NCBI GenBank assembly: GCA_964482495.1
Contig: CAYZXS010000007.1
Coordinates: forward strand, 34,573 to 98,572
Length of the DNA: 64,000 nt
Direction of reading: 5' to 3'
DNA from: an uncultured Planctomycetales bacterium
GTDB lineage: Bacteria; Planctomycetota; UBA1135
Under the pieces are notes generated by a model that made no database searches, had not been told where the DNA came from, and saw only the letters and a list, made by a program, of their open reading frames with translations. This document shows, piece after piece, positions 2 through 35,256 of this stretch. How positions within the stretch are numbered: the stretch's first letter is position 1; each line of letters starts with the position of its first letter. The position numbers were made by a program, and so were the translations under genes.

Positions 2-2716
2 CCGCGGGAGGCCGTCGGCACGGCCCTCTGCGCCGTGGGCGACCTGACGGGCGACGGCCACCCCGAACTGGCGATCGGCGCCCCGGGCTGGAGCCAGGAC
101 GGCTTCCGCAAGGGAATGGTGCGGATCTACGATCCGGTCGACGGCCGGCTGGTGCGCGAGCTGCCCGGAGTCGCCGCCGACGGCGGCACGGGGCTCTCCC
201 TGGCGGCGGCCGGCGACGTCGACCGCGACGGCCTGCCCGACCTGATGGTGGCGGCGCCGGCCGAGGACCGCGCCGGGATGGTGCGGATCCACTCCGGGAA
301 GAGCGGCGCGGTGCTGCTCGAGATCCCCGGCGAACAGGAGCACGCCCGCTTCGGCAGCTCGCTGTGCGGCCTCGGAGACGTCAACGGGGACGGCGTGCCC
401 GAGCTGGCGATCGGCGCCCCGGGCTTCGACAACGGCCGCGACGACGTCGGGCGGGTGGCGGTGTACTCCGGCGCCGACGGCGAGCGCCTCTACACCCACG
501 ACGGCGAGGCCGACGACACCCGGGTGGGCGCCGCCCTCGCGGCGGCCGGCGACCTGGATCAGGACGGCCGCAACGACTTCCTCGTCGGCGGCACCGGCGT
601 CCGCGGCACTGGGGTGGTCTGGGCGCTCTCCGGCGCCGACGGCGGGGTCCTGCACCGCATCCTCGGCAGCGAGCAAGGCGAGAAGTTCGGCGCGGCGCTG
701 GCCGCCGGCGGCTACGACGGCGACACCGCCCTGCTGGCGATCGCGGCGCCCGACGCCGAGCACAGCGGCCCGATGGCTGGCCGCGTCCGGCTCTACACCA
801 TGCGGGCCGCGCCCCTGCAGCCGGTGGCGGCGGCGGGGACCGAACCCGGATCCGCCGCGCCGGCGGCGCTGCCGGCCGCGAGCCTGAACTTCCTGGACGA
901 CAAGCTGCCGTCGAAGTTCCGCCGGATCGAGGCCGCCGACGGCCGCTGGGTCTTCTACAGCACGATGGGCGCCACCGAGACCCGGGACGCCGTCAAGCTG
1001 ATCGACCGCGCCTACGCCCGCCTCGACGAGGTGCTCGGCGGCCCGGCGCTCGGCCCCCGGGCGGCCACCCAGGCGCCGGTGATCCTGAGCTACGTCTCGA
1101 GCCTCTCCGACCAGAAGCGCATCAGCCGCGAGGTCGGCCGCCAGTTCGAGCACCTGGCCGGGTGGACCAAGGAGTGGGGCGGCCTGCCGCAGATGATCCT
1201 GTGGAACCCGCTGCTCAGCACGATCCGGCACGACGAGACCACCGCCCTGGTCCAGCGGCCGGAGATGCAGGTGCTGCACCACGCCGTCCACCTCGAGCTG
1301 GTGCGGCGCTACGGCCCGGTGCCGGGCTGGATCCCGGAGGCCATCAGCTACGGCATCCAGGACGAGATCACCGGCGAGATCTACGCCTACTCCAACCGCG
1401 GCTGGGAGCAGCTGTCGGAGGACTACCACCAGATCTGGCGCGAGCACGCCTCCGACCTCTGGGTTGACGGCCCGATGCCGACCCTGGACTCGCTCTTCGG
1501 CGGCCGCCACGACGCCTTCCGCCAGCACCAGGCCTACGGCCGCTTCGGCATCGGCCTGTGGATGCTCAAGGACCCGCAGCGCCGCCTGGCCCAGCTCTTC
1601 GAGGCGATCCAAGAGCGGCGGGCGCCGAACATGCTCCCGGAGACCGACTACAAGCCTGAGCCGGACGTGCACCGCAAGCTGCTCACCTCGGTCTACGGCG
1701 ACGACATGAGGCAACAGGCCTCGAGCTTCTGGGGCAGCGTCACCCTCGCCGGCGGACCGCGCGCCCGCCGCGCCGCCGCCCTAGCCTCGATCGAGGACGC
1801 GATCACGACGCTGAAGCTGCACACCGCCAAGAGCCGGGACGGCCAGCTGCGCCTCGCCAGCGACCTGTCGCCCAAGGCCACCAGCAAGATCTTGAAGAGC
1901 AGCGAGTCGGTGCTCGGCCGGCTCTCGAAGGCGACCGACACCCGCCTGCCCAAGGACACCCAGCTGACCATCTTCGTCCTCCGGGACCAAGACGCCTACC
2001 GCCAGGTCTGCGACGGCATCTCGGAGGCGGCGCCCGGCCTGGGCGCCTACCTGAAGGTGATGCGGGAGAGCACCGGCTTCCTGCTGCCCGACATGCCCGT
2101 GGCCGCCTACTGGGACGACATCAAGTTCCAGGAGCAGACCCGGCCCGACCAGTCGGTGGCGCACAGCGTCGTGCACCTGTGGCTGCGCCAGCGCTTCGGC
2201 CAGCTGCCGCTGTGGCTCTCCGAGGGCCTGGCTTGCGCCAGCGAGGAGGTCGAGTTCCGCGACGTCTGGGGCATGTGGAACCTCGAGGGCTTCGTCTACG
2301 ACGCCTCGCGCTCGGCCTGGCGCGAGACGGCCCGCGAGTACGTGACCACCAAGGAGGACACGATCCGCTGCTACGGCTGGTCCGGGGTGACCTACGGCAC
2401 CGAGCCGCCGCGGGTGGAGAAGCCCAAGCCGACCCTGGAGCAGCTCTACGAGTACCCGGCGACGACCTTCCAGGACGACCTGGCGCACCTGGCCTTCGCC
2501 TTCGCGATCTACGGTCTGGAGGGCGACAAGAAGGGCTTCCGCGAGTTCCTCGACGCCCTGCAAGAGGAGTACGACGCCAACTGGAGCACCGTCGGCCGCT
2601 TCGAGCCCGACGCCAAGCTGGTGGAGCGCCTGGTCAAGAAGAGCTTCGGCCGCGATTTCGAGCGGCGGTTCGTCGATTGGTGGTCGAAGAAGGGGGCGAA
2701 GAGGCCCCGGCGCTAG
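2..2716 (+). CDS. FG-GAP repeat protein with two C-terminal DUF1570/peptidase-MA-like modules (5' end outside the window)
   Basis: The frame is open from position 2 (PREAVGTALCAVGDLTGDG...), so the gene starts upstream of the window. The N-terminal half carries repeated GD[LV][DN]GDGxP[DE]LxxGAPG units (FG-GAP/integrin-alpha-like). The C-terminal half has two modules, HHAVHLEL...WIPEAISYGIQDE and AHSVVHLWL...WLSEGLACASEE. These resemble the DUF1570 pattern HExxH...WLxEGLAxYxE but lack the catalytic Glu. Stop TAG at 2714-2716. Confidence 0.85.
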   Translation, partial: PREAVGTALCAVGDLTGDGHPELAIGAPGWSQDGFRKGMVRIYDPVDGRLVRELPGVAADGGTGLSLAAAGDVDRDGLPDLMVAAPAEDRAGMVRIHSGKSGAVLLEIPGEQEHARFGSSLCGLGDVNGDGVPELAIGAPGFDNGRDDVGRVAVYSGADGERLYTHDGEADDTRVGAALAAAGDLDQDGRNDFLVGGTGVRGTGVVWALSGADGGVLHRILGSEQGEKFGAALAAGGYDGDTALLAIAAPDAEHSGPMAGRVRLYTMRAAPLQPVAAAGTEPGSAAPAALPAASLNFLDDKLPSKFRRIEAADGRWVFYSTMGATETRDAVKLIDRAYARLDEVLGGPALGPRAATQAPVILSYVSSLSDQKRISREVGRQFEHLAGWTKEWGGLPQMILWNPLLSTIRHDETTALVQRPEMQVLHHAVHLELVRRYGPVPGWIPEAISYGIQDEITGEIYAYSNRGWEQLSEDYHQIWREHASDLWVDGPMPTLDSLFGGRHDAFRQHQAYGRFGIGLWMLKDPQRRLAQLFEAIQERRAPNMLPETDYKPEPDVHRKLLTSVYGDDMRQQASSFWGSVTLAGGPRARRAAALASIEDAITTLKLHTAKSRDGQLRLASDLSPKATSKILKSSESVLGRLSKATDTRLPKDTQLTIFVLRDQDAYRQVCDGISEAAPGLGAYLKVMRESTGFLLPDMPVAAYWDDIKFQEQTRPDQSVAHSVVHLWLRQRFGQLPLWLSEGLACASEEVEFRDVWGMWNLEGFVYDASRSAWRETAREYVTTKEDTIRCYGWSGVTYGTEPPRVEKPKPTLEQLYEYPATTFQDDLAHLAFAFAIYGLEGDKKGFREFLDALQEEYDANWSTVGRFEPDAKLVERLVKKSFGRDFERRFVDWWSKKGAKRPRR

Positions 2717-2803
2717 GTCCGGCGCCTTTTCCCGGCGCCAGGAGGCGGCTTTTGCTAAACCGCCGGGTCCTTCGGGGGTATTCCCCCCCTCGGACCCGAC
2801 GCC

Positions 2804-5800
2804 ATGCCTCCGTCCCCCGCTCCCGCCCTCGCTCTGCTCCTGGCCCTTTCGGCCCCGCCCGCGCCCGCGCCCGGCAGCGGTCCGAGCGAGATCCGGACCC
2901 TGAACGGCCCCCAGGACCAGGCGAAGCTCGGCAGCGCCGTTGCGGTCGTCGGCGACCTCGACGGCGACGGCCAACCCGAGCTGCTGGCCGGCGCCCCGGG
3001 CCTGCGCGGGGTCGGCAAGCGCTCCGGCGCGGCCCTGGTCTATTCGGGCGCCACCGGCGAAGTGGTCCGCCAGCACGACGGCGACGGCCCCTGGTCCGAG
3101 CTCGGCTGCAGCGTCGCTGCCCTGGGCGACGTCGACGGCGACGGCCGCCCCGACTACGCCGTCGGCGCCCGCTTCGACGGCGCGGACAACGACCGCTCGG
3201 GCAGCGTCTCGGTCTACTCCGGCGCCAGCGGCAACCTGCTCCGCAGCTTCTCCGGCGGCGCCCCGCGCGAGGCCGCCGGCACCGCCCTCAGCGCCCTGGG
3301 CGACCTCGACGGGGACGGCGTCACCGAGCTGGCGGTCGGCGCCCCGGGTTGGTCTCGCGACGGCTTCCGCGTGGGCATGGTCCGCGTCTACTCCCTCGCG
3401 GGCGGCGCCCTGCTGCACGAGATCCCGGGCGTGGCCGCCGACGGCCTGGCTGGGAGCGTACTCGCCGCCGCCGGTGACCTCGACGGCGACGGCGCGCCCG
3501 ATCTGCTCATCGGCTGCCCCGGCGAAGGCGAAGGAGGCGCGGTCCGAGTTCACTCTGGGCGCAGCGGCGCCCCGCTGCTCGAGCTCGCCGGCGACGAAGC
3601 CCGCGCAGAATTCGGCGCCGCCCTGTGCTCGCTGGGCGACCTCGACGGCGACGAGATCCCGGACTTCGCGGTCGGCGCGCCTGGCTACGACGGCCGCGGC
3701 GAGGACATCGGCCGGGTGAGCCTGCACTCCGGCGCCGACGGCCGCGAGCTGGCGGCGCTCGAAGGCGGCCGGTCCGGATCGCGCCGAGGCGGCGCCTTGG
3801 CCGTGGCCGGCGACTTCGACGGCGACGGCAAGCTGGACCTGCTGCTCGGCGGACGCCGCGGCCCCGAGGGCGGCAGCGGAAGCGTCGAGTTGATCTCCGG
3901 CGACGGCCTGCGCCGCATCCAGCTGGTGCAGGGCCAGACCGACGGGCCCAGCTTCGGCGTCGCCCTAGCTTCGGGGCCGCTGGACGCCGGCCACCGCTTG
4001 GTCGCGGTGGGAGCGCCCGAGGCCAATTTCCGCGGCCCCGCCGCCGGACGGGTCCGCCTCTACGCCCTGGAGCGCGGCGCCGGCCAGCCCGGCGCTGCCA
4101 CCGATGCCGCACCCACGGTGCCCGGCGAGGCCGTCGCCGAGGCCCCCGCCGCGGCGGTCGGGACCAGCTTCCTCAGCGCGGCGCTTCCGGCGCGCTTCCG
4201 CCGCACCACCGCTGACGACGGCCGCTGGATCTTCTTCAGCACCATGAGCACCGAAGAATCGCGGGTGGCCGTCGAGCTGATCGAGCGCAGCTACGGCCGG
4301 CTCGACCAGGTGCTCGGGAACCGCGCCACCGGCGCCGCCGCCGCCACCGCCGACCCCGTCGTGCTGGCCTTCGTCTCCTCGCTCGAGGACCAACTCGAGA
4401 TCTCGGGCGCGGTCGGGAAGCACAAACCCGAGCTGCAGGAGTGGGTCCAGGAGTGGGGCGGCATGCCGCAGATGACCTTGTGGAACCCCCTGCTGGCGAT
4501 CGTGCGCCACGACGAGACCACGGCGCTGGTGAAGCGGCCGGAGCTGCAGATCGTCCACCACCTGGTCCACCTGGAGCTGGTGCGGCGCTACGGCTCCATC
4601 CCCGGCTGGGTGCCGGAGGCGCTCAGCTTTTTTTTTAATGATTAGTTGACCTGCGAGATCTACTCCTACTCCAACCGCGGCTGGGAGCAGCTCTCGGAGG
4701 AGTACCACCAGATCTGGCGCGAGAACAGCTCCGACCTCTGGACCGGCGGCCGGCCGCCGGTGCTCGACCGGCTGTTCGGCGGCCGCCACGACGCCTTCAA
4801 GCAGCTCCAGGCCTACGGCCGCTTCGGGCTGGGCCTGTTCTGGCTCAAGGACCCGGAGCGCCGGCTGCCCCGGCTGCTCGAGGGCTTGGTGGCGCTGCGG
4901 CCCGACGGCACGGTTCCCCAGATCGACTTCCAGCCCGAGGACCAGCAGCAGCTGGCGGCGCTGCTCGACTGCTACGGCCGCGACCTGCAGCAGCAGGTGG
5001 CCGGCTTCTGGGCGACCGTGTCGCTGGCCGGCGGGCCGCGGGCGCGCCGGGCGGCGGCCAAGGCCTCGGTCGAGGATGCCATCGCCGCGCTCGAGCTGGG
5101 CGTCCACACCAGCCGCGACGGGCGCCTCCGAGTGGTCAGCGACGCCTCGAAGAAGGAGGCCTCCGCGGTTCTGAAGAGCGCAAGCGCCATGACCGGGCGG
5201 CTGGAGAAGGCGCTCGGTAAGGGTTGGCCCGAGGACGACCCGCAGCTGACGCTGTTCCTGCTGCGCGACCGCGCCTCCTACCAGCAGGTCTGCGACGGCA
5301 TCGCCGCGGCCTGGCCCGGCATCGGTCCCTACCTGGCCGAGGCCCGCGACGGCGTCGGCTTCCTCCTGCCGCACATGCCCGTCGCGGCGACTTGGAACGA
5401 CATCAAGTTCCAGGAGCAGACCCGGCCGGCGCAGTCGGTCGGCCACCAGGCGGCGCACCTGTGGCTGCGGGTGCGCTACGGCCAGCTGCCGCTGTGGCTG
5501 TCGGAGGGCCTCGCCTGCGCCCTGGAGCAGGCCGAGTTCGACAGCGTCTGGGCCAATTGGAACCTGCAGGGCTTCGTCTACGACTCCTACCGCGGCGCCT
5601 GGCCGCGGACCGCGCGCGAGCTGCTCACCGGCAAGGACGAGACCGTGCGCTGCTACGACTGGACCGGCGTGCCCTATGGCGCCGAACCGCCGAGGGTCGA
5701 GCGGCCGAGGCCGGGGATGGACCAGCTCTACCAGTACCGCGCCACGGTCTTCCGTGACGAGCTGGCGCACCTCGCCTTCGCCTTCGCGCGCTACGGCCTG

Positions 5801-5977
5801 GAGAAGGACAAGAAGGGCCTGCGCAAGCTGCTCGAGCTCCTGCAGGAGGAGTACCTGGCCAACTGGGTCACGGTCGGCCGCTTCGAGCCCGACGCGCCGC
5901 TGATGCGCGGCCTGGTCGAGCGCGGCTTCGGCGCCGATTTCGAGGACCGGCTGCGCGCCTGGTGGGCGAAGCAGTAG
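2804..5977 (+). pseudogene. Tandem paralogue of the upstream FG-GAP/DUF1570-like gene, interrupted by an in-frame TAG at 4643-4645
   Basis: Signal peptide MPPSPAPALALLLALSAPPAPAPG, then FG-GAP repeats and the same two C-terminal modules (VHHLVHLEL..., GHQAAHLWL...WLSEGLACALEQ). Track ORFs 2804..4645 and 4646..5977 are contiguous and in the same frame. Together they align end to end with the protein encoded at 2..2716. The only break is the TAG inside the AT-rich patch. Confidence 0.8.
4628..4649 (+). other. Compositionally alien 22-nt patch TTTTTTTTTAATGATTAGTTGA with stop codons in all three forward frames
   Basis: Only 3 of 22 bases are G/C, in a very GC-rich window. TAA 4636 and TGA 4639 share one frame, TAG 4643 is in the gene frame, and TGA 4647 closes the third frame. 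The patch replaces seven codons without changing length relative to the paralogue at 1349..1369. Confidence 0.9.
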
Positions 5978-6631: not shown

Positions 6632-8560
6632 ATGGGCTGGGTGAACGAGAGCACGGCTTCCCCTCCTCGCCTGCCGCTCGCCCTGGCCCACGCCCTCGCC
6701 GGCGCCGGTCTGGTCGGCCTGCTCGACGCGGCGCTGCGGATCCCGCTGGACACCAGCGGCTTCCTGCGCGAGGCGGTGGTGGTCGTGGTCGCCGGGGACC
6801 TGCTGGTGGCGGCGGCGGCGCTGCTGCTGCTGGCGGCGCTGCGGCGCCGGCCGAGCGCGCGCGACGCCTTCGCCCTGGGCCTGGCGGTCGGCCTGGTGCC
6901 GCTGCTGAGCTTCAAATTCCACTCCCCCGTGACCTGGTGGGCCTTCGCCGCGCCGGCCTTGGTCCTGTTCGCCGGGGGGCTGCGCCGGGTGGCCTCGCCC
7001 CCGCCGGCCGCGGTCGCCGCCTTCGCCCCGGCGCTGCTGCTGGGCTTCGCCTTGCTGCCGCCCTCGCTGCAGCCCGAGCTGCCGCCGGCGCCGGACAGCG
7101 CGGCCCTGGTGGCCGCCGGCCGGCCGGACGCGCGCCCGGACATCTTGCTGGTGTCCTGCGACACGTTGCGGGCGGACTCGGTGAACGACCCGCCCGGGGC
7201 GCTGCCGAACCTGCAACGGCTGCGGGAAGAGGGCAGCTGGGCCGAGTACGCGCTGTCGACCAGCTGCTCGACGCGGCCGGGGCACGTGTCGATGCTCACC
7301 GGCCTCGGGGCGATGGAGCACGCCGTCGCCAGCAACGAGAACCGGGTCGAGGTCGAGGCCGAGCTGGTCTCCGAGCGGCTCGCGGCCGCCGGCTACCGCA
7401 CCGCCGCGGTGGTCAGCAACGCCGTGATCCAGGGCGGCTCGGGCTTCGGCGCCGGCTTCGAGGTCTATGACGACTCACCGGTCGCCCGGCGCGGCCCGCG
7501 CGAGGCCTTCCTGCGCATGGTCGCCGAGCACACCTGGCTCGGGCGCTTGGGCCTGGCCGAGCTGCCGCCGGCGGCGGCGGTGTTCTTGTTCGGAGAGGGC
7601 TCCACCGTGCTCGAGGGCGACCGCGGCAACGGCCGCCACACCACCGACCACGCCTTGGCCCTGATGGAGGAGCTGCAAGCGGGCGCGGCGCCCTACTTCC
7701 TGTTCGTCCACTACATGGACCCGCACGCGCCCTATTGGCCGCCGGCCGACACCGCCGGCGAGTACGCGCCCGACGCCGCCCTGCCCGAGCGCTACCGCGG
7801 CCAGGGCCTGCAGAACGGCGAGCGGGCCCTGGCGCACCGGCTCGGCGAGGAGCTGCAGTCGGGCAGCGAGCAGGCGATGGTCGACCTGCAGGACCAGCGC
7901 CGGCTCTACGACGAGGAGGTGCTGTTCGTCGACCGCATGCTCGGCGAGCTGCAGCAGCAGATCGCCTCCAGCGGCCGGCCGACCGTGGTGCTGTTCACCG
8001 CCGACCACGGCGAGCACTTCGGCGAGCACGGCCTGGTGCTGCACCGCAACTCGCTCTACGAGCCGCTGGTGCGGGTGCCGCTGATGCTGGCCGGCCCCGG
8101 CGTGCCGCGGCGCAAGCTCGAGACCGTGCCTCACCTCGAAGACGTCGCGCCGACGCTGCTGGCGGCGGCCGGCCTCGACCCCGAGGACTTGCCCGGCCGC
8201 GACCTGCGCGCCGAGACCGTGCCGGAGCTGCCGCACTTCGAGCGCTACAAGGACATGCTGGCGCTGCGCGACCGCGGCTGGAAGTTGCACTGCCGGCTGG
8301 TGGCGGACGCCGACGGCACGCTGCAGGCCGTGCCGCGCGAGCTCTACTTCGTGGACGGCGACCCCGAGGAGCTGGACGACCGGCTCGCCGCCGAGCCGGA
8401 GGTCGCGGCCCGGCTGCTGACGGCGGCCAACGCCGTGCTCGCGGCCAGCGCCGCCACCTTGGAGGGAGCCATCGACGACGACCCCCTGCACCAGGAGGCG
8501 CTGGAGGCCCTGGGCTACATCGACGGCGTCGACGACCCGGAGCCGGGAGGGGACGGCTAG
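6632..8560 (+). CDS. Membrane-anchored sulfatase-like hydrolase/transferase (alkaline phosphatase superfamily)
   Basis: About 150 aa of hydrophobic TM segments are followed by DILLVSCDTLRAD (metal-binding Asp) and STRPGHVSMLTG (TxPxHxSxLTG-type nucleophile motif). Further on come FTADHGEHFGEHG and NSLYEPLVRVPL. The start is taken at ATG 6632 because the upstream part of track ORF 6128.. overlaps the lipoprotein gene on the opposite strand. Confidence 0.8.
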   Translation: MGWVNESTASPPRLPLALAHALAGAGLVGLLDAALRIPLDTSGFLREAVVVVVAGDLLVAAAALLLLAALRRRPSARDAFALGLAVGLVPLLSFKFHSPVTWWAFAAPALVLFAGGLRRVASPPPAAVAAFAPALLLGFALLPPSLQPELPPAPDSAALVAAGRPDARPDILLVSCDTLRADSVNDPPGALPNLQRLREEGSWAEYALSTSCSTRPGHVSMLTGLGAMEHAVASNENRVEVEAELVSERLAAAGYRTAAVVSNAVIQGGSGFGAGFEVYDDSPVARRGPREAFLRMVAEHTWLGRLGLAELPPAAAVFLFGEGSTVLEGDRGNGRHTTDHALALMEELQAGAAPYFLFVHYMDPHAPYWPPADTAGEYAPDAALPERYRGQGLQNGERALAHRLGEELQSGSEQAMVDLQDQRRLYDEEVLFVDRMLGELQQQIASSGRPTVVLFTADHGEHFGEHGLVLHRNSLYEPLVRVPLMLAGPGVPRRKLETVPHLEDVAPTLLAAAGLDPEDLPGRDLRAETVPELPHFERYKDMLALRDRGWKLHCRLVADADGTLQAVPRELYFVDGDPEELDDRLAAEPEVAARLLTAANAVLAASAATLEGAIDDDPLHQEALEALGYIDGVDDPEPGGDG

Positions 8561-12541: not shown

Positions 12542-14212
12542 ATGTTCGCATCCCTCCTGCTGTCCGCCCTCGCAGCCGCGCCGTCGCCCCAGGACGCCGC
12601 CCAAGAGCTGGTCCCGATCCCCGCCTTCCTGGACTCGCCGCGCTGCGCCTCTTGCCACGAGTCCAGCCCGACGGCGACCGCGATGCGCGACGCCAGCGGC
12701 CGCAGCGTCGCGCCTTACGACCTCTGGCGCGGCACCATGATGGCGAACGCCGGCCGCGACCCGCTGTGGCAAGCGATGGTCTCGGCCGAGGTCGCCGCCC
12801 AGCCGCAGCACCGCGAGTTCATCGAGGACAAGTGCACCAAGTGCCACGCGCCGATGGCCTGGGTCGACGCCCACGAGACCGATCTGACGACTCTGGGAAT
12901 GGACGACTTCCACGGCGAGCACGAGCGGGCGGTGCTGGCCCGCGACGGCGTCTCCTGCACCTTGTGCCACCAGATCACGCCCGACGGCCTGGGCACGGAG
13001 GCCAGCTTCACCGGCGGCTACCGGATCGGCACCGACCTAGAGATCTACGGCCCCTACGGCGACCTGTTCTCGATGCCAATGCGGCGCCACACGGGATACC
13101 AGGCGACCGAATCGGCCCACGTGCGGGATTCGGCGCTGTGCGCGACCTGCCACACGCTGTTCACGCAGGCCCTCGACGAGAGCGGCGACTTCACCGGTCA
13201 CAGCCTGCCCGAGCAGACCCCGTACCTGGAGTGGCGCAACTCGGTCTACAGCACCGAGGTCGCCGAGCCCGGGCCGATGGCCGCGAGCTGCCAGGAGTGC
13301 CACATGCCGGCGACCGATGCCGACGGCGCGCCGATCGCGACCGGCATCGCCCGCAACCCCGCGGGCAACGACTTCCCGCGGGTCGGACCGCGCTCTCCCT
13401 ACGGCCGCCACCTGTTCGTCGGCGGCAACACGGTACTGCCGGCGATCTTCCGCGAGAACGCCGAGGAGCTGGGGGTAGAGGCGCCGGCAGCGGCCTTCGT
13501 CGCGGTCGAGCAGGCCGCCCGCGAGCAGCTGCAGGAGCGCACCGCCGAGCTCGAGCTGGCCGGCGCCCGGCGCGACGGCGACCGGCTGCTGCTCGACTTC
13601 GAGGCCCGCAACCTCGCCGGCCACAAGCTACCGAGCGGCCACCCGCTGCGCCGCGCCTGGCTGCAGGTCACGGTGGCGGACGCCGACGGCGCCCTGATCT
13701 TCGCCAGCGGCCGGGCCGACGACCGCGGCCGGATCCTGGGCGGGGACGGAACGCCGCTGGCCGCCGAGCGGGTCGGAGGACCGGTGGAGCCGCACCACCA
13801 GGTGCTGGAGTCCTCGGACCAGGTCCAGATCTGGGAGGCGGTGATGGAGGACAGCCTCGGCCGGCCGACCTGGAGCCTGCTGGCCGGCGCGGTCTACTTG
13901 AAGGACAACCGCCTGCTGCCGCGGGGATGGGACCCGGGCCACGCCAGCGCTGAGGTGATCGGCGCCATCGGCACCGCTGGCGACGAGGACTTCGTCGGCG
14001 GCGTCGACCGGGTCCGCTACGCGGTCGCGGCTCCGGCCGCGCGCGGGCCGTTCACGGTGCGGGCCGAGCTGCTCTACCAGACCGCCTCGGCGCGCTTCCT
14101 GGACGAGCTGTTCGCCGTCGGCACGCCCGAGACCGCGCGCTTCCAGCGCATGTGGCGCCAGGCGCCGCGGCGGCCGGAGCGGATGGACGCGGTCGCCTAC
14201 CGGGTGGAGTGA
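12542..14212 (+). CDS. Secreted pentaheme c-type cytochrome
   Basis: Five CxxCH motifs: CASCH, CTKCH, CTLCH, CATCH and CQECH. Signal peptide MFASLLLSALAAAPSPQ. Confidence 0.9.
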   Translation: MFASLLLSALAAAPSPQDAAQELVPIPAFLDSPRCASCHESSPTATAMRDASGRSVAPYDLWRGTMMANAGRDPLWQAMVSAEVAAQPQHREFIEDKCTKCHAPMAWVDAHETDLTTLGMDDFHGEHERAVLARDGVSCTLCHQITPDGLGTEASFTGGYRIGTDLEIYGPYGDLFSMPMRRHTGYQATESAHVRDSALCATCHTLFTQALDESGDFTGHSLPEQTPYLEWRNSVYSTEVAEPGPMAASCQECHMPATDADGAPIATGIARNPAGNDFPRVGPRSPYGRHLFVGGNTVLPAIFRENAEELGVEAPAAAFVAVEQAAREQLQERTAELELAGARRDGDRLLLDFEARNLAGHKLPSGHPLRRAWLQVTVADADGALIFASGRADDRGRILGGDGTPLAAERVGGPVEPHHQVLESSDQVQIWEAVMEDSLGRPTWSLLAGAVYLKDNRLLPRGWDPGHASAEVIGAIGTAGDEDFVGGVDRVRYAVAAPAARGPFTVRAELLYQTASARFLDELFAVGTPETARFQRMWRQAPRRPERMDAVAYRVE

Positions 14213-35093: not shown

Positions 35094-35256
35094 CGTCCGG
35101 TTTCCCCTTTCCGCCCCCTCGACGTCTCGTGCCAGTTTGGCACCAAACCCTGCGGCCCTCGGATCTGCGCCGCTGCGCGGCGCGGATCCACGGGCCGCAG
35201 GGTTTGGTGCCAAACTGGCACGAGACGTCGAGGGGGCGGAAAGGGGAAACCGGACG
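35094..35256. repeat. 163-bp near-perfect palindrome (65-bp perfect arms plus a nested 13-bp inner stem)
   Basis: 35094-35158 is the exact reverse complement of 35192-35256, checked base by base. In the spacer, 35161-35173 pairs with 35177-35189 with one T:G position, around a 3-nt loop. The palindrome lies exactly between the convergent stops at 35090 (+) and 35286 (-). Confidence 0.95.

What the first reader, a model, noticed from the sequence alone, without database searches (positions are those of the whole stretch)
4628..4649. Length-preserving 22-nt AT-rich patch with stops in all three frames, inside one of two tandem paralogues
TTTTTTTTTAATGATTAGTTGA has 3 G/C in 22 nt and is the only strongly AT-rich stretch I saw in 64 kb of very GC-rich DNA. 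It closes all three forward frames: TAA 4636 and TGA 4639 share one frame, TAG 4643 is in the gene frame, and TGA 4647 closes the third. Against the upstream paralogue (EAISYGIQDEITGEIYAYSNRGWEQ, DNA 1349..1369), the patch substitutes exactly seven codons (YGIQDEI becomes FFFND*L). There is no indel, and homology resumes in frame straight afterwards (TCEIYSYSNRGWEQ). Natural insertions or decay rarely preserve length and frame while adding a three-frame stop. The patch therefore resembles an engineered stop cassette, an assembly or contamination artefact, or a very unusual gene-conversion scar. It removes the segment equivalent to the DUF1570 EGLAxYxE region of module A. A TTG follows the TAG directly, so a restart product of 443 aa is conceivable.
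Basis: seen in the sequence. Interest (0 to 1): 0.75.

Follow-up and report, generated by a model that had tools for sequence, protein, structure and literature searches.

The report
Private miscall patch, not biology
The AT-rich, stop-filled 22-mer is real in this window, but seven independent public assemblies of the same bacterial population have an intact gene there, so it is almost certainly a sequencing or assembly error and not a biological or engineered element.

Summary
TTTTTTTTTAATGATTAGTTGA sits at 4628-4649. It is the only strongly AT-rich 22-mer in the 64 kb window (72.7% GC), closes all three forward frames and preserves length.

The interpretation does not hold. The same population (at least 99.9% identical) occurs in many public metagenome contigs. 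Seven distinct contigs span the site, and all read AGCTACGGCCTGCAAGACGAGATCACCGGCGAGATCTACGCC, which gives an intact 1057-aa gene.

Across the 60.4 kb of the window covered by public contigs, the only window-private differences are 15 substitutions at 4629-4664. There are no indels. Thirteen of the 15 changes are to T, whatever the original base. The cluster starts abruptly and thins to the right.

The patch starts 9 nt after a GGC triplet. It overlaps the longest exact repeat shared by the two paralogues (53 nt). It lies about 100 nt upstream of a perfect 20-nt GC palindrome where five other assemblies break or carry junk or N-gap sequence.

The replaced residues (Y-G-L-Q-D-E-I) are conserved across the whole protein family.

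Best reading: a cluster of base-call errors fixed into one consensus at a spot that is hard to sequence and assemble. It is not a real feature, and interest is low.

The parts
4629..4664 (+). The true extent of the anomaly: 15 window-private substitutions and no indel. Thirteen are to T (from A x3, C x4, G x6), plus C->A at 4637 and C->G at 4648.
   Evidence: Ungapped comparison with L001, L002 and L004 and with L012 and L013. Private-difference scan over 60.4 kb.
4628..4649 (+).
2804..5977 (+). Gene B (1057 codons): N-terminal FG-GAP repeats plus two C-terminal modules that resemble a degenerate zinc-peptidase (HxxxH...E) fold. It is interrupted in this window only, by TAG 4643. It is intact (1057 aa) in public contigs.
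35..2716 (+). Paralogue A (its 5' end is cut by the window start). It is 58% identical in protein to wild-type B and has the wild-type-like motif SYGIQDEITGEIYAYS.
4640..4692 (+). Position, in wild-type B, of the longest exact repeat shared with paralogue A (53 nt; the A copy is at 1361-1413). The patch overlaps its left 25 nt.
   Evidence: the next longest shared segment is 31 nt.
4618..4620 (+). GGC triplet 9 nt upstream of the first changed base. This is the published trigger context for runs of consecutive Illumina miscalls.
   Evidence: Sequence. Nakamura et al. 2011, PMC3141275.
4742..4761 (.). Perfect 20-nt GC palindrome ACCGGCGGCC|GGCCGCCGGT. Other assemblies carry junk (L003) or an N10 scaffold gap (L011) here. 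Contigs L014-L016 end at 4798/4800.

Best explanation
The patch is a non-biological error in this one consensus sequence. A cluster of substitution-type base miscalls, biased towards a single base (T), was fixed into the assembly at a spot that is hard both to sequence and to assemble. The real gene is intact and reads ...AGC TAC GGC CTG CAA GAC GAG ATC ACC GGC GAG ATC TAC GCC... (S Y G L Q D E I T G E I Y A). Shown: the patch is private to this window, consists only of substitutions, is T-biased, starts abruptly and thins out, and lies in a zone where other assemblies also fail. Inferred: the trigger was Illumina-type sequence-specific dephasing after the GGC at 4618-4620, with the opposite-strand reads compromised by the GC palindrome at 4742-4761. 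Also inferred: few clean reads were left between these two triggers, and the 53-nt inter-paralogue repeat made the assembly graph ambiguous, so an error-laden read path became the consensus. Length and frame are preserved because sequencing-by-synthesis errors are substitutions. Stop codons appear because T placed in front of the retained purines (AA, GA, AG) of this purine-rich segment creates TAA, TGA and TAG.
For: (1) Seven distinct contigs from seven assemblies span the site and all have the wild-type sequence and an intact or otherwise uninterrupted motif. They are JGI 3300009128, 3300013119 and 3300013111, and ENA SAMN10231892, -893, -913 and -914. (2) Against L001 the window shows 15 differences in 21,301 nt, all within 36 nt. 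Over the 60.4 kb covered by public contigs there are no other window-private differences. (3) The changes show no sign of natural mutation or selection. The target base is uniform (13 of 15 to T) while the source bases are mixed (A 3, C 6, G 6). There are 4 transitions and 11 transversions, and codon positions 1/2/3 are hit 7/2/6 times, with no bias towards third positions. (4) The spacing between changes is 1,1,1,1,1,2,1,2,3,1,3,2,4,12, so the cluster has a sharp left edge and decays to the right. (5) The context fits. A GGC lies 9 nt upstream. The patch overlaps the longest A/B exact repeat (53 nt). A perfect 20-nt GC palindrome lies about 100 nt downstream, where L003 has a C10 junk insertion, L011 has an N10 gap, and L014-L016 end. 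(6) The literature fits. Illumina errors are substitutions. Consecutive miscalls start within about 10 nt after GGC or at inverted repeats, depend on read direction, and cause coverage loss, branching and assembly gaps. T accumulation is a listed cause of miscalls (PMC3141275). (7) Other contigs of the same sample series carry single-base-biased error clusters near their ends: L016 at 8393-8447 (all to C) and L003 at 628-631 (all to G). (8) The replaced residues are conserved in all 16 family representatives aligned (37-61% identity for the closer ones), so a functional gene is expected. (9) Neither ORF created by the patch (613 aa, 443 aa) is on record in the public gene index. All 16 contigs carrying the neighbouring 194-aa gene show gene B intact, N-gapped or cut by a contig end.
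Against: No reads are available, so the error mechanism is inferred and not shown. Under a simple decaying X->T miscall model, an in-frame stop is common (30-37%) but closure of all three frames is rare (1-2%). That is mildly odd, although the feature was noticed after the fact. The other error clusters seen in this sample series are biased to G or C, not T. A de Bruijn assembler needs correct sequence on both sides of an error burst to bridge it, so an interior burst or an overlap or scaffold merge must be assumed. The provenance of the window is unknown, and it matches none of the fetched contigs exactly. The negative collection scans say nothing either way, because those collections also lack the wild-type contigs.
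Confidence: 0.85

Rival explanations
1. The sequence record was corrupted or edited after assembly. Examples are a gap-fill, polishing or ambiguity-code replacement step that wrote T into uncertain positions, or a deliberate synthetic edit of this window. This would also be non-biological.
For: The patch-bearing ORFs are absent from the public gene index, although neighbouring genes of the window are present with exact sequence. TAA-TGA-T-TAG-T-TGA looks designed, and three-frame closure has only 1-2% probability under a random miscall model. Outside the patch the window shows no private differences.
Against: A replaced cassette should not keep wild-type bases interleaved. Eight of 21 positions match inside 4629-4649, against about 3.8 expected from composition (my calculation). 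It also would not add isolated G->T changes at 4652 and 4664. Overlap with the 53-nt repeat and the GGC/palindrome context has a chance probability of roughly 0.1-3% for a randomly placed edit. No vector or plasmid source was found (E = 6 only).
Confidence: 0.08
2. The patch is a real, very recent strain-specific lesion: a localised hypermutation or templated repair patch that inactivated gene B in a subpopulation.
For: The sequence is in the window as given. The tandem paralogue could buffer loss of B. An ORF with a TTG start follows the stop.
Against: There are 15 changes in 36 nt and none in the other 60 kb. Convergence of A, C and G on one target base is the reverse of known enzymatic hypermutation, which acts on one source base (C deamination, or adenine-specific changes in diversity-generating retroelements; established knowledge). 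The site is wild-type in all seven other contigs. The replaced residues are family-invariant or nearly so.
Confidence: 0.05
3. The patch is a gene-conversion scar or a chimeric join with a homologous AT-rich donor.
For: Length and frame are preserved and the wild-type bases are interleaved, as would be expected from a diverged homologous donor.
Against: Paralogue A, the only homologue in the window, carries GC-rich wild-type-like sequence at this site. No other copy exists within 3 mismatches. The family is small (126 representatives at E <= 0.001 among 1.84 billion), and every aligned member encodes the conserved motif.
Confidence: 0.02

Closest known systems
Illumina sequence-specific error (SSE) clusters (Nakamura et al. 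2011, NAR 39:e90, PMC3141275)
   Same: The changes are substitutions only. They are consecutive miscalls with a sharp starting position within 10 nt downstream of a GGC triplet, with some correct bases interspersed. A GC-rich inverted repeat lies nearby. Neighbouring assemblies show gaps, branching and contig ends at the same place.
   Different: SSEs are described at the level of reads, whereas here the errors sit in a finished consensus. The strong bias to T is not the 'matches the preceding one or two bases' pattern reported in the paper, apart from T4628 preceding the run. The sequencing platform and the reads are unknown.
Error-laden contig ends or tips and scaffold-junction junk in short-read metagenome assemblies
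   Same: Contigs of the same sample series show clusters of single-base-biased substitutions within about 5-60 nt of their ends (L016, L003, L025, L023). L003 and L011 carry junk or N-gap sequence 100-140 nt from the patch.
   Different: The patch is internal to a contig of at least 64 kb, and its bias is to T, not to G or C.
Engineered three-frame stop cassettes
   Same: Stops occur in all three frames within 14 nt, offset by single T spacers.
   Different: It is not a block replacement, because wild-type bases are interleaved and two outlying substitutions lie beyond it. The host is known here only from environmental metagenomes. No match to plasmid or vector records was found.
DUF1570 / Peptidase_MA_2 (zinc-peptidase-like, gluzincin) domains. 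This concerns the affected gene, not the patch.
   Same: The modules carry H-x-x-x-H followed about 20 residues later by P-x-W-x-x-E. Four of 19 family members match DUF1570 (best E 4.9e-6) and two match Peptidase_MA_2 (7.3e-5). One member (P0008) keeps HEAVH.
   Different: The window's own modules are below the Pfam threshold (E 0.03-0.06). The catalytic Glu of HExxH is replaced (HHLVH in module 1, HQAAH in module 2), so peptidase activity is doubtful.

Membership tests
Sequencing/assembly artefact (miscall cluster fixed in a consensus) | Absent from independent assemblies of the same population | tested here: met
   Seven distinct contigs all carry the wild-type sequence at 4629-4664.
Sequencing/assembly artefact (miscall cluster fixed in a consensus) | Substitutions only, clustered, biased to one called base, with no codon-position or transition bias | tested here: met
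   15 substitutions, 0 indels, 13 to T, transitions:transversions 4:11, codon positions 7/2/6.
Sequencing/assembly artefact (miscall cluster fixed in a consensus) | Located at a known error or assembly trigger (GGC, inverted repeat, repeat boundary) where other assemblies also fail | tested here: met
   GGC 9 nt upstream. 53-nt A/B repeat. 20-nt palindrome. Junk, N gap and contig ends in L003, L011 and L014-L016. Literature.
Sequencing/assembly artefact (miscall cluster fixed in a consensus) | Not supported by high-quality reads on both strands | not testable with these tools
   No read data are available.
Engineered three-frame stop cassette | A contiguous foreign block replaces or interrupts the native sequence | tested here: not met
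   21 of 36 positions keep the wild-type base, interleaved with the changes. Isolated changes at 4652 and 4664 lie outside the 22-mer.
Engineered three-frame stop cassette | A genetically tractable, cultured host, or associated vector or marker sequence | tested here: not met
   All related sequences found are environmental metagenome contigs. The plasmid search gave only chance hits. No genome in the species-representative collection matched.
Gene-conversion scar from the tandem paralogue | The donor copy carries the converted sequence | tested here: not met
   Paralogue A reads TACGGCATCCAGGACGAGATC at the homologous site. There is no other copy in the window.
Diversity-generating retroelement or deaminase-type targeted hypermutation | The changes arise from a single source base (A for diversity-generating retroelements, C or G for deaminases) | tested here: not met
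   The source bases are A x3, C x6 and G x6. It is the target base that is uniform.
Diversity-generating retroelement or deaminase-type targeted hypermutation | A reverse transcriptase and template repeat nearby | not tested
   The window was not scanned for a reverse transcriptase. No second copy of the segment was found other than paralogue A.
DUF1570 / Peptidase_MA_2 (the gene affected) | Match above the Pfam gathering score | tested here: not met
   Window modules score 14-15 bits against a cut-off of 22. Only 4 of 19 relatives match at E <= 0.01.

The most novel reading that the evidence does not exclude
The patch is a genuine, very recent strain-specific lesion made by an unknown localised mutational process that converts any base to T over about 36 nt (for example non-templated or A-rule synthesis across a damaged stretch), knocking out one of two tandem paralogues.
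Probability: 0.04. Interest if true: 0.55.

Novelty: not a real feature. Interest (0 to 1): 0.07.

Why it matters
The main value is as a caution. The locus would be annotated as a pseudogene or as two split genes, and its three-frame stops could be read as engineering or as a regulatory element. Comparison with the same population in other assemblies shows an intact 1057-aa gene under conservation. The case also gives a recognisable signature for such artefacts. They contain only substitutions, converge on one base, have a sharp edge with a decaying tail, are private to one assembly, and sit next to GGC or palindrome motifs and paralogue repeats where other assemblies break.

Tried and rejected
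(1) Exact look-up of the two ORFs created by the patch (613 aa, 443 aa) found neither on record.

(2) A genome-contig scan with peptides of the C-terminal ORF found no relative. A second scan with a 40-mer from just outside the window end gave 0 hits. The source genome is therefore not readable in that collection.

(3) Two metagenome-contig scans, one for the patch with its flanks and one for the flanks with 24 N, both gave 0 hits. The control shows the collection also lacks the wild-type contigs, and the pattern was verified on the fetched loci and the window. These negatives are therefore uninformative.

(4) A homologue search with the 142 aa upstream of the patch found nothing, although the exact protein is encoded on public contigs. 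This is a limit of the word-index search. The exhaustive search found 126 relatives.

(5) A BLAST of the patch against plasmid records gave only chance hits at E = 6.

(6) A PDB sequence search with the C-terminal modules found nothing significant.

(7) A literature search for the sample and run accessions gave 0 papers.

(8) I considered and rejected several readings: an engineered cassette, a conversion from paralogue A, diversity-generating-retroelement or deaminase hypermutation, programmed frameshifting on the T9 run, and a restart at TTG 4646. The last two are moot because the run is absent from every other copy.

(9) I considered whether ENA scaffold_284 (104 kb) is the window's source. 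It differs from the window at 35187 and 35216, so it is not.

Full report
**1. Observation**

The 22-mer TTTTTTTTTAATGATTAGTTGA is at window 4628-4649, exactly as described. The window is 72.7% GC. Every 22-nt window with 6 or fewer G/C overlaps this site, and the next lowest value anywhere is 7. It is also the only T run of 6 or more.

The stops TAA 4636, TGA 4639, TAG 4643 and TGA 4647 close all three forward frames. TAG 4643 interrupts an otherwise open 1057-codon frame, 2804..5977. The alignment to the upstream tandem paralogue (35..2716, cut by the window start) has no gaps.

**2. The same population in other assemblies**

Exact-protein look-ups of neighbouring window genes returned many public metagenome contigs at 99.9-100% identity to the window. 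They come from JGI (3300009128, 3300013111, 3300013112, 3300013118, 3300013119, 3300007511, 3300007512, 3300008954, 3300009378), from ENA (SUTE22-1 assemblies of SAMN10231892-914) and from Logan (SRR80623xx).

Seven distinct contigs span the site. All of them read AGCTACGGCCTGCAAGACGAGATCACCGGCGAGATCTACGCC. Four of these contigs encode an intact 1057-aa gene B. The other three are wild-type at the site as well: L013 also encodes the intact gene, and L003 and L011 are disturbed only by their own junk about 100 nt downstream.

An ungapped comparison of the window with L001 over 21,301 nt gives 15 differences, all inside 4629-4664. Tiling all loci covers 60.4 of the 64 kb. The only positions where the window differs from every covering contig are these 15. 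Two further differences from L019, at 24382 and 24409, are ordinary polymorphisms shared with five other contigs.

The two ORFs the patch would create are not on record. All 16 contigs carrying the adjacent 194-aa gene show gene B intact, N-gapped or cut by a contig end.

**3. Anatomy of the difference**

- The difference consists of 15 substitutions and no indels.
- Thirteen changes are to T: three from A, four from C and six from G. The other two are C->A at 4637 and C->G at 4648.
- There are four transitions and eleven transversions.
- Codon positions 1/2/3 are hit 7/2/6 times.
- Of the ten affected codons, seven are missense, one is nonsense and two are unchanged at the protein level.
- The spacing between successive changes is 1,1,1,1,1,2,1,2,3,1,3,2,4,12. 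The left edge at 4629 is sharp and the tail decays to 4664.
- Twenty-one of the 36 positions keep the wild-type base, interleaved with the changes.

The sequence is therefore the wild type with bases overwritten, and not a foreign block. The stops arise because T lands in front of retained purine pairs: C-AA-G-AC-G-AG becomes T-AA-T-GA-TT-AG.

Under a simple decaying X->T model applied to the wild-type sequence, an in-frame stop appears in 30-37% of trials. Closure of all three frames appears in 1-2% of trials. That is uncommon, but the property was noticed after the fact.

**4. Context**

- The patch begins 9 nt after the GGC at 4618-4620.
- It overlaps the left 25 nt of the longest exact repeat between paralogue A and wild-type B. 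That repeat is 53 nt, at 1361-1413 in A and 4640-4692 in B. The next longest shared segment is 31 nt.
- About 100 nt downstream lies a perfect 20-nt GC palindrome at 4742-4761.
- At that palindrome, L003 carries a 23-nt junk insertion containing a C10 run, and L011 carries an N10 scaffold gap with junk. Contigs L014, L015 and L016 end at 4798/4800, and L017 ends at 4886.
- Other contigs of this sample series show clusters of single-base-biased substitutions close to their ends: L016 at 8393-8447 (all to C), L003 at 628-631 (all to G), and also L025 and L023.

Nakamura et al. 2011 (PMC3141275) report several relevant points about Illumina sequencing. Its errors are mostly substitutions. Runs of consecutive miscalls start at specific positions, usually within 10 nt after a GGC or at inverted repeats. 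These runs depend on read direction and still contain some correct calls. They cause coverage loss, apparent branching and assembly gaps. The paper also lists T accumulation among the known causes of miscalls.

**5. Explanation**

Shown:
- The patch is private to this window.
- It consists only of substitutions that converge on one base.
- It starts abruptly and thins out.
- It sits where sequencing and assembly demonstrably fail in sister assemblies.
- It destroys a motif that is conserved throughout the family.

Inferred:
- Plus-strand reads dephased after the GGC at 4618-4620, and minus-strand reads were compromised by the palindrome.
- Few clean reads were left between these two triggers.
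- With the 53-nt paralogue repeat adding ambiguity to the assembly graph, an error-laden path became the consensus.

A post-assembly corruption step, or a deliberate edit, cannot be excluded (about 8%). It would be equally non-biological. The interleaved wild-type bases, the two outlying G->T changes and the co-location with the repeat argue against a planted block.

**6. The affected gene**

Genes A and B are tandem paralogues, 58% identical in protein. Each has N-terminal FG-GAP repeats and two related C-terminal modules (E = 1e-13 between the modules). Each module carries H-x-x-x-H followed by P-x-W-x-x-E.

An exhaustive search found a small family: 126 representatives at E <= 0.001, of which about 15 have the full architecture. 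In the 16 representatives I aligned, the residues overwritten by the patch (Y/F-G/A-L/I/V-Q-D/E-E-L/I) are conserved. The block YG(L/I)QDEITGEIYAYSNRGWEQLSE is the best-conserved stretch between A and B.

The window's own modules score below threshold for DUF1570. Four of 19 relatives match DUF1570 and two match Peptidase_MA_2. One relative (P0008) retains HEAVH. The family is probably a degenerate zinc-peptidase-like (gluzincin) fold, but this is inference.

**7. Comparison and verdict**

The closest known phenomenon is an Illumina sequence-specific error cluster, or contig-junction junk, fixed into a consensus. The features that would define an engineered cassette, a paralogue conversion, or diversity-generating-retroelement or deaminase hypermutation were tested and not met. 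This is not a real biological feature. Confidence that it is non-biological is about 0.93 in total (0.85 for a read or assembly error, 0.08 for later corruption). Interest is low.

**8. Limits**

- No reads could be examined.
- The window's source record is unknown.
- Three collection scans were uninformative, because those collections also lack the wild-type contigs (with controls).

Noticed in passing
window 35094-35256: A 163-nt near-perfect palindrome (80-nt arms, 96% complementary, 3-nt loop) lies between convergent ORFs. Five public contigs start or end inside it. One 104-kb ENA scaffold (L022) runs through it with two mismatches (35187, 35216). It could be a real long hairpin element or terminator, or an assembly hairpin artefact.
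   Followed up: partly
L003 about 14060-14100 (window about 4752-4766); L011 (window about 4748-4758): Two other public assemblies carry their own junk at the 20-nt GC palindrome inside gene B. L003 has a 23-nt insertion with a C10 run, which splits the gene into 797 + 262 aa. L011 has an N10 scaffold gap with G-rich filler, which gives a 1065-aa call. The 797-aa artefactual product even appears as a cluster representative (P0013) in the protein library.
   Followed up: yes
window 35-5977 (genes A and B) and relatives P0001-P0015: A small, uncharacterised family combines FG-GAP repeats with two tandem modules that resemble a degenerate zinc peptidase. Most members have lost the catalytic Glu of HExxH (HHLVH, HQAAH). 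One member keeps HEAVH. There are only about 126 representatives among 1.84 billion clusters.
   Followed up: partly
L016 (window 8393-8447), L003 (628-631), L004/L009 (6995, 7014), L025 (45941-45956): Public contigs of this sample series show small clusters of substitutions, often biased to a single base (C or G), mostly within 5-60 nt of contig ends. This suggests recurrent read-tail errors retained by the assemblers.
   Followed up: partly
window 6128-62606 (gene content): The neighbourhood encodes sulfatases, a GH38 alpha-mannosidase, a GH130 enzyme, M1 and M13 peptidases, a transglutaminase/CBM9 protein, an RND efflux system and a serine/threonine kinase fused to an FGE-sulfatase domain. 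This fits a very GC-rich marine glycan- and protein-degrading bacterium known here only from metagenomes. No taxonomic name could be obtained.
   Followed up: no
tools / collections: The word-indexed homologue search returned nothing for a 142-aa segment that is encoded identically on public contigs. The metagenome-contig collection lacks JGI contig Ga0118727_1001163, which the encoding-contig look-up returns. Negative results from these two resources should not be read as absence.
   Followed up: yes
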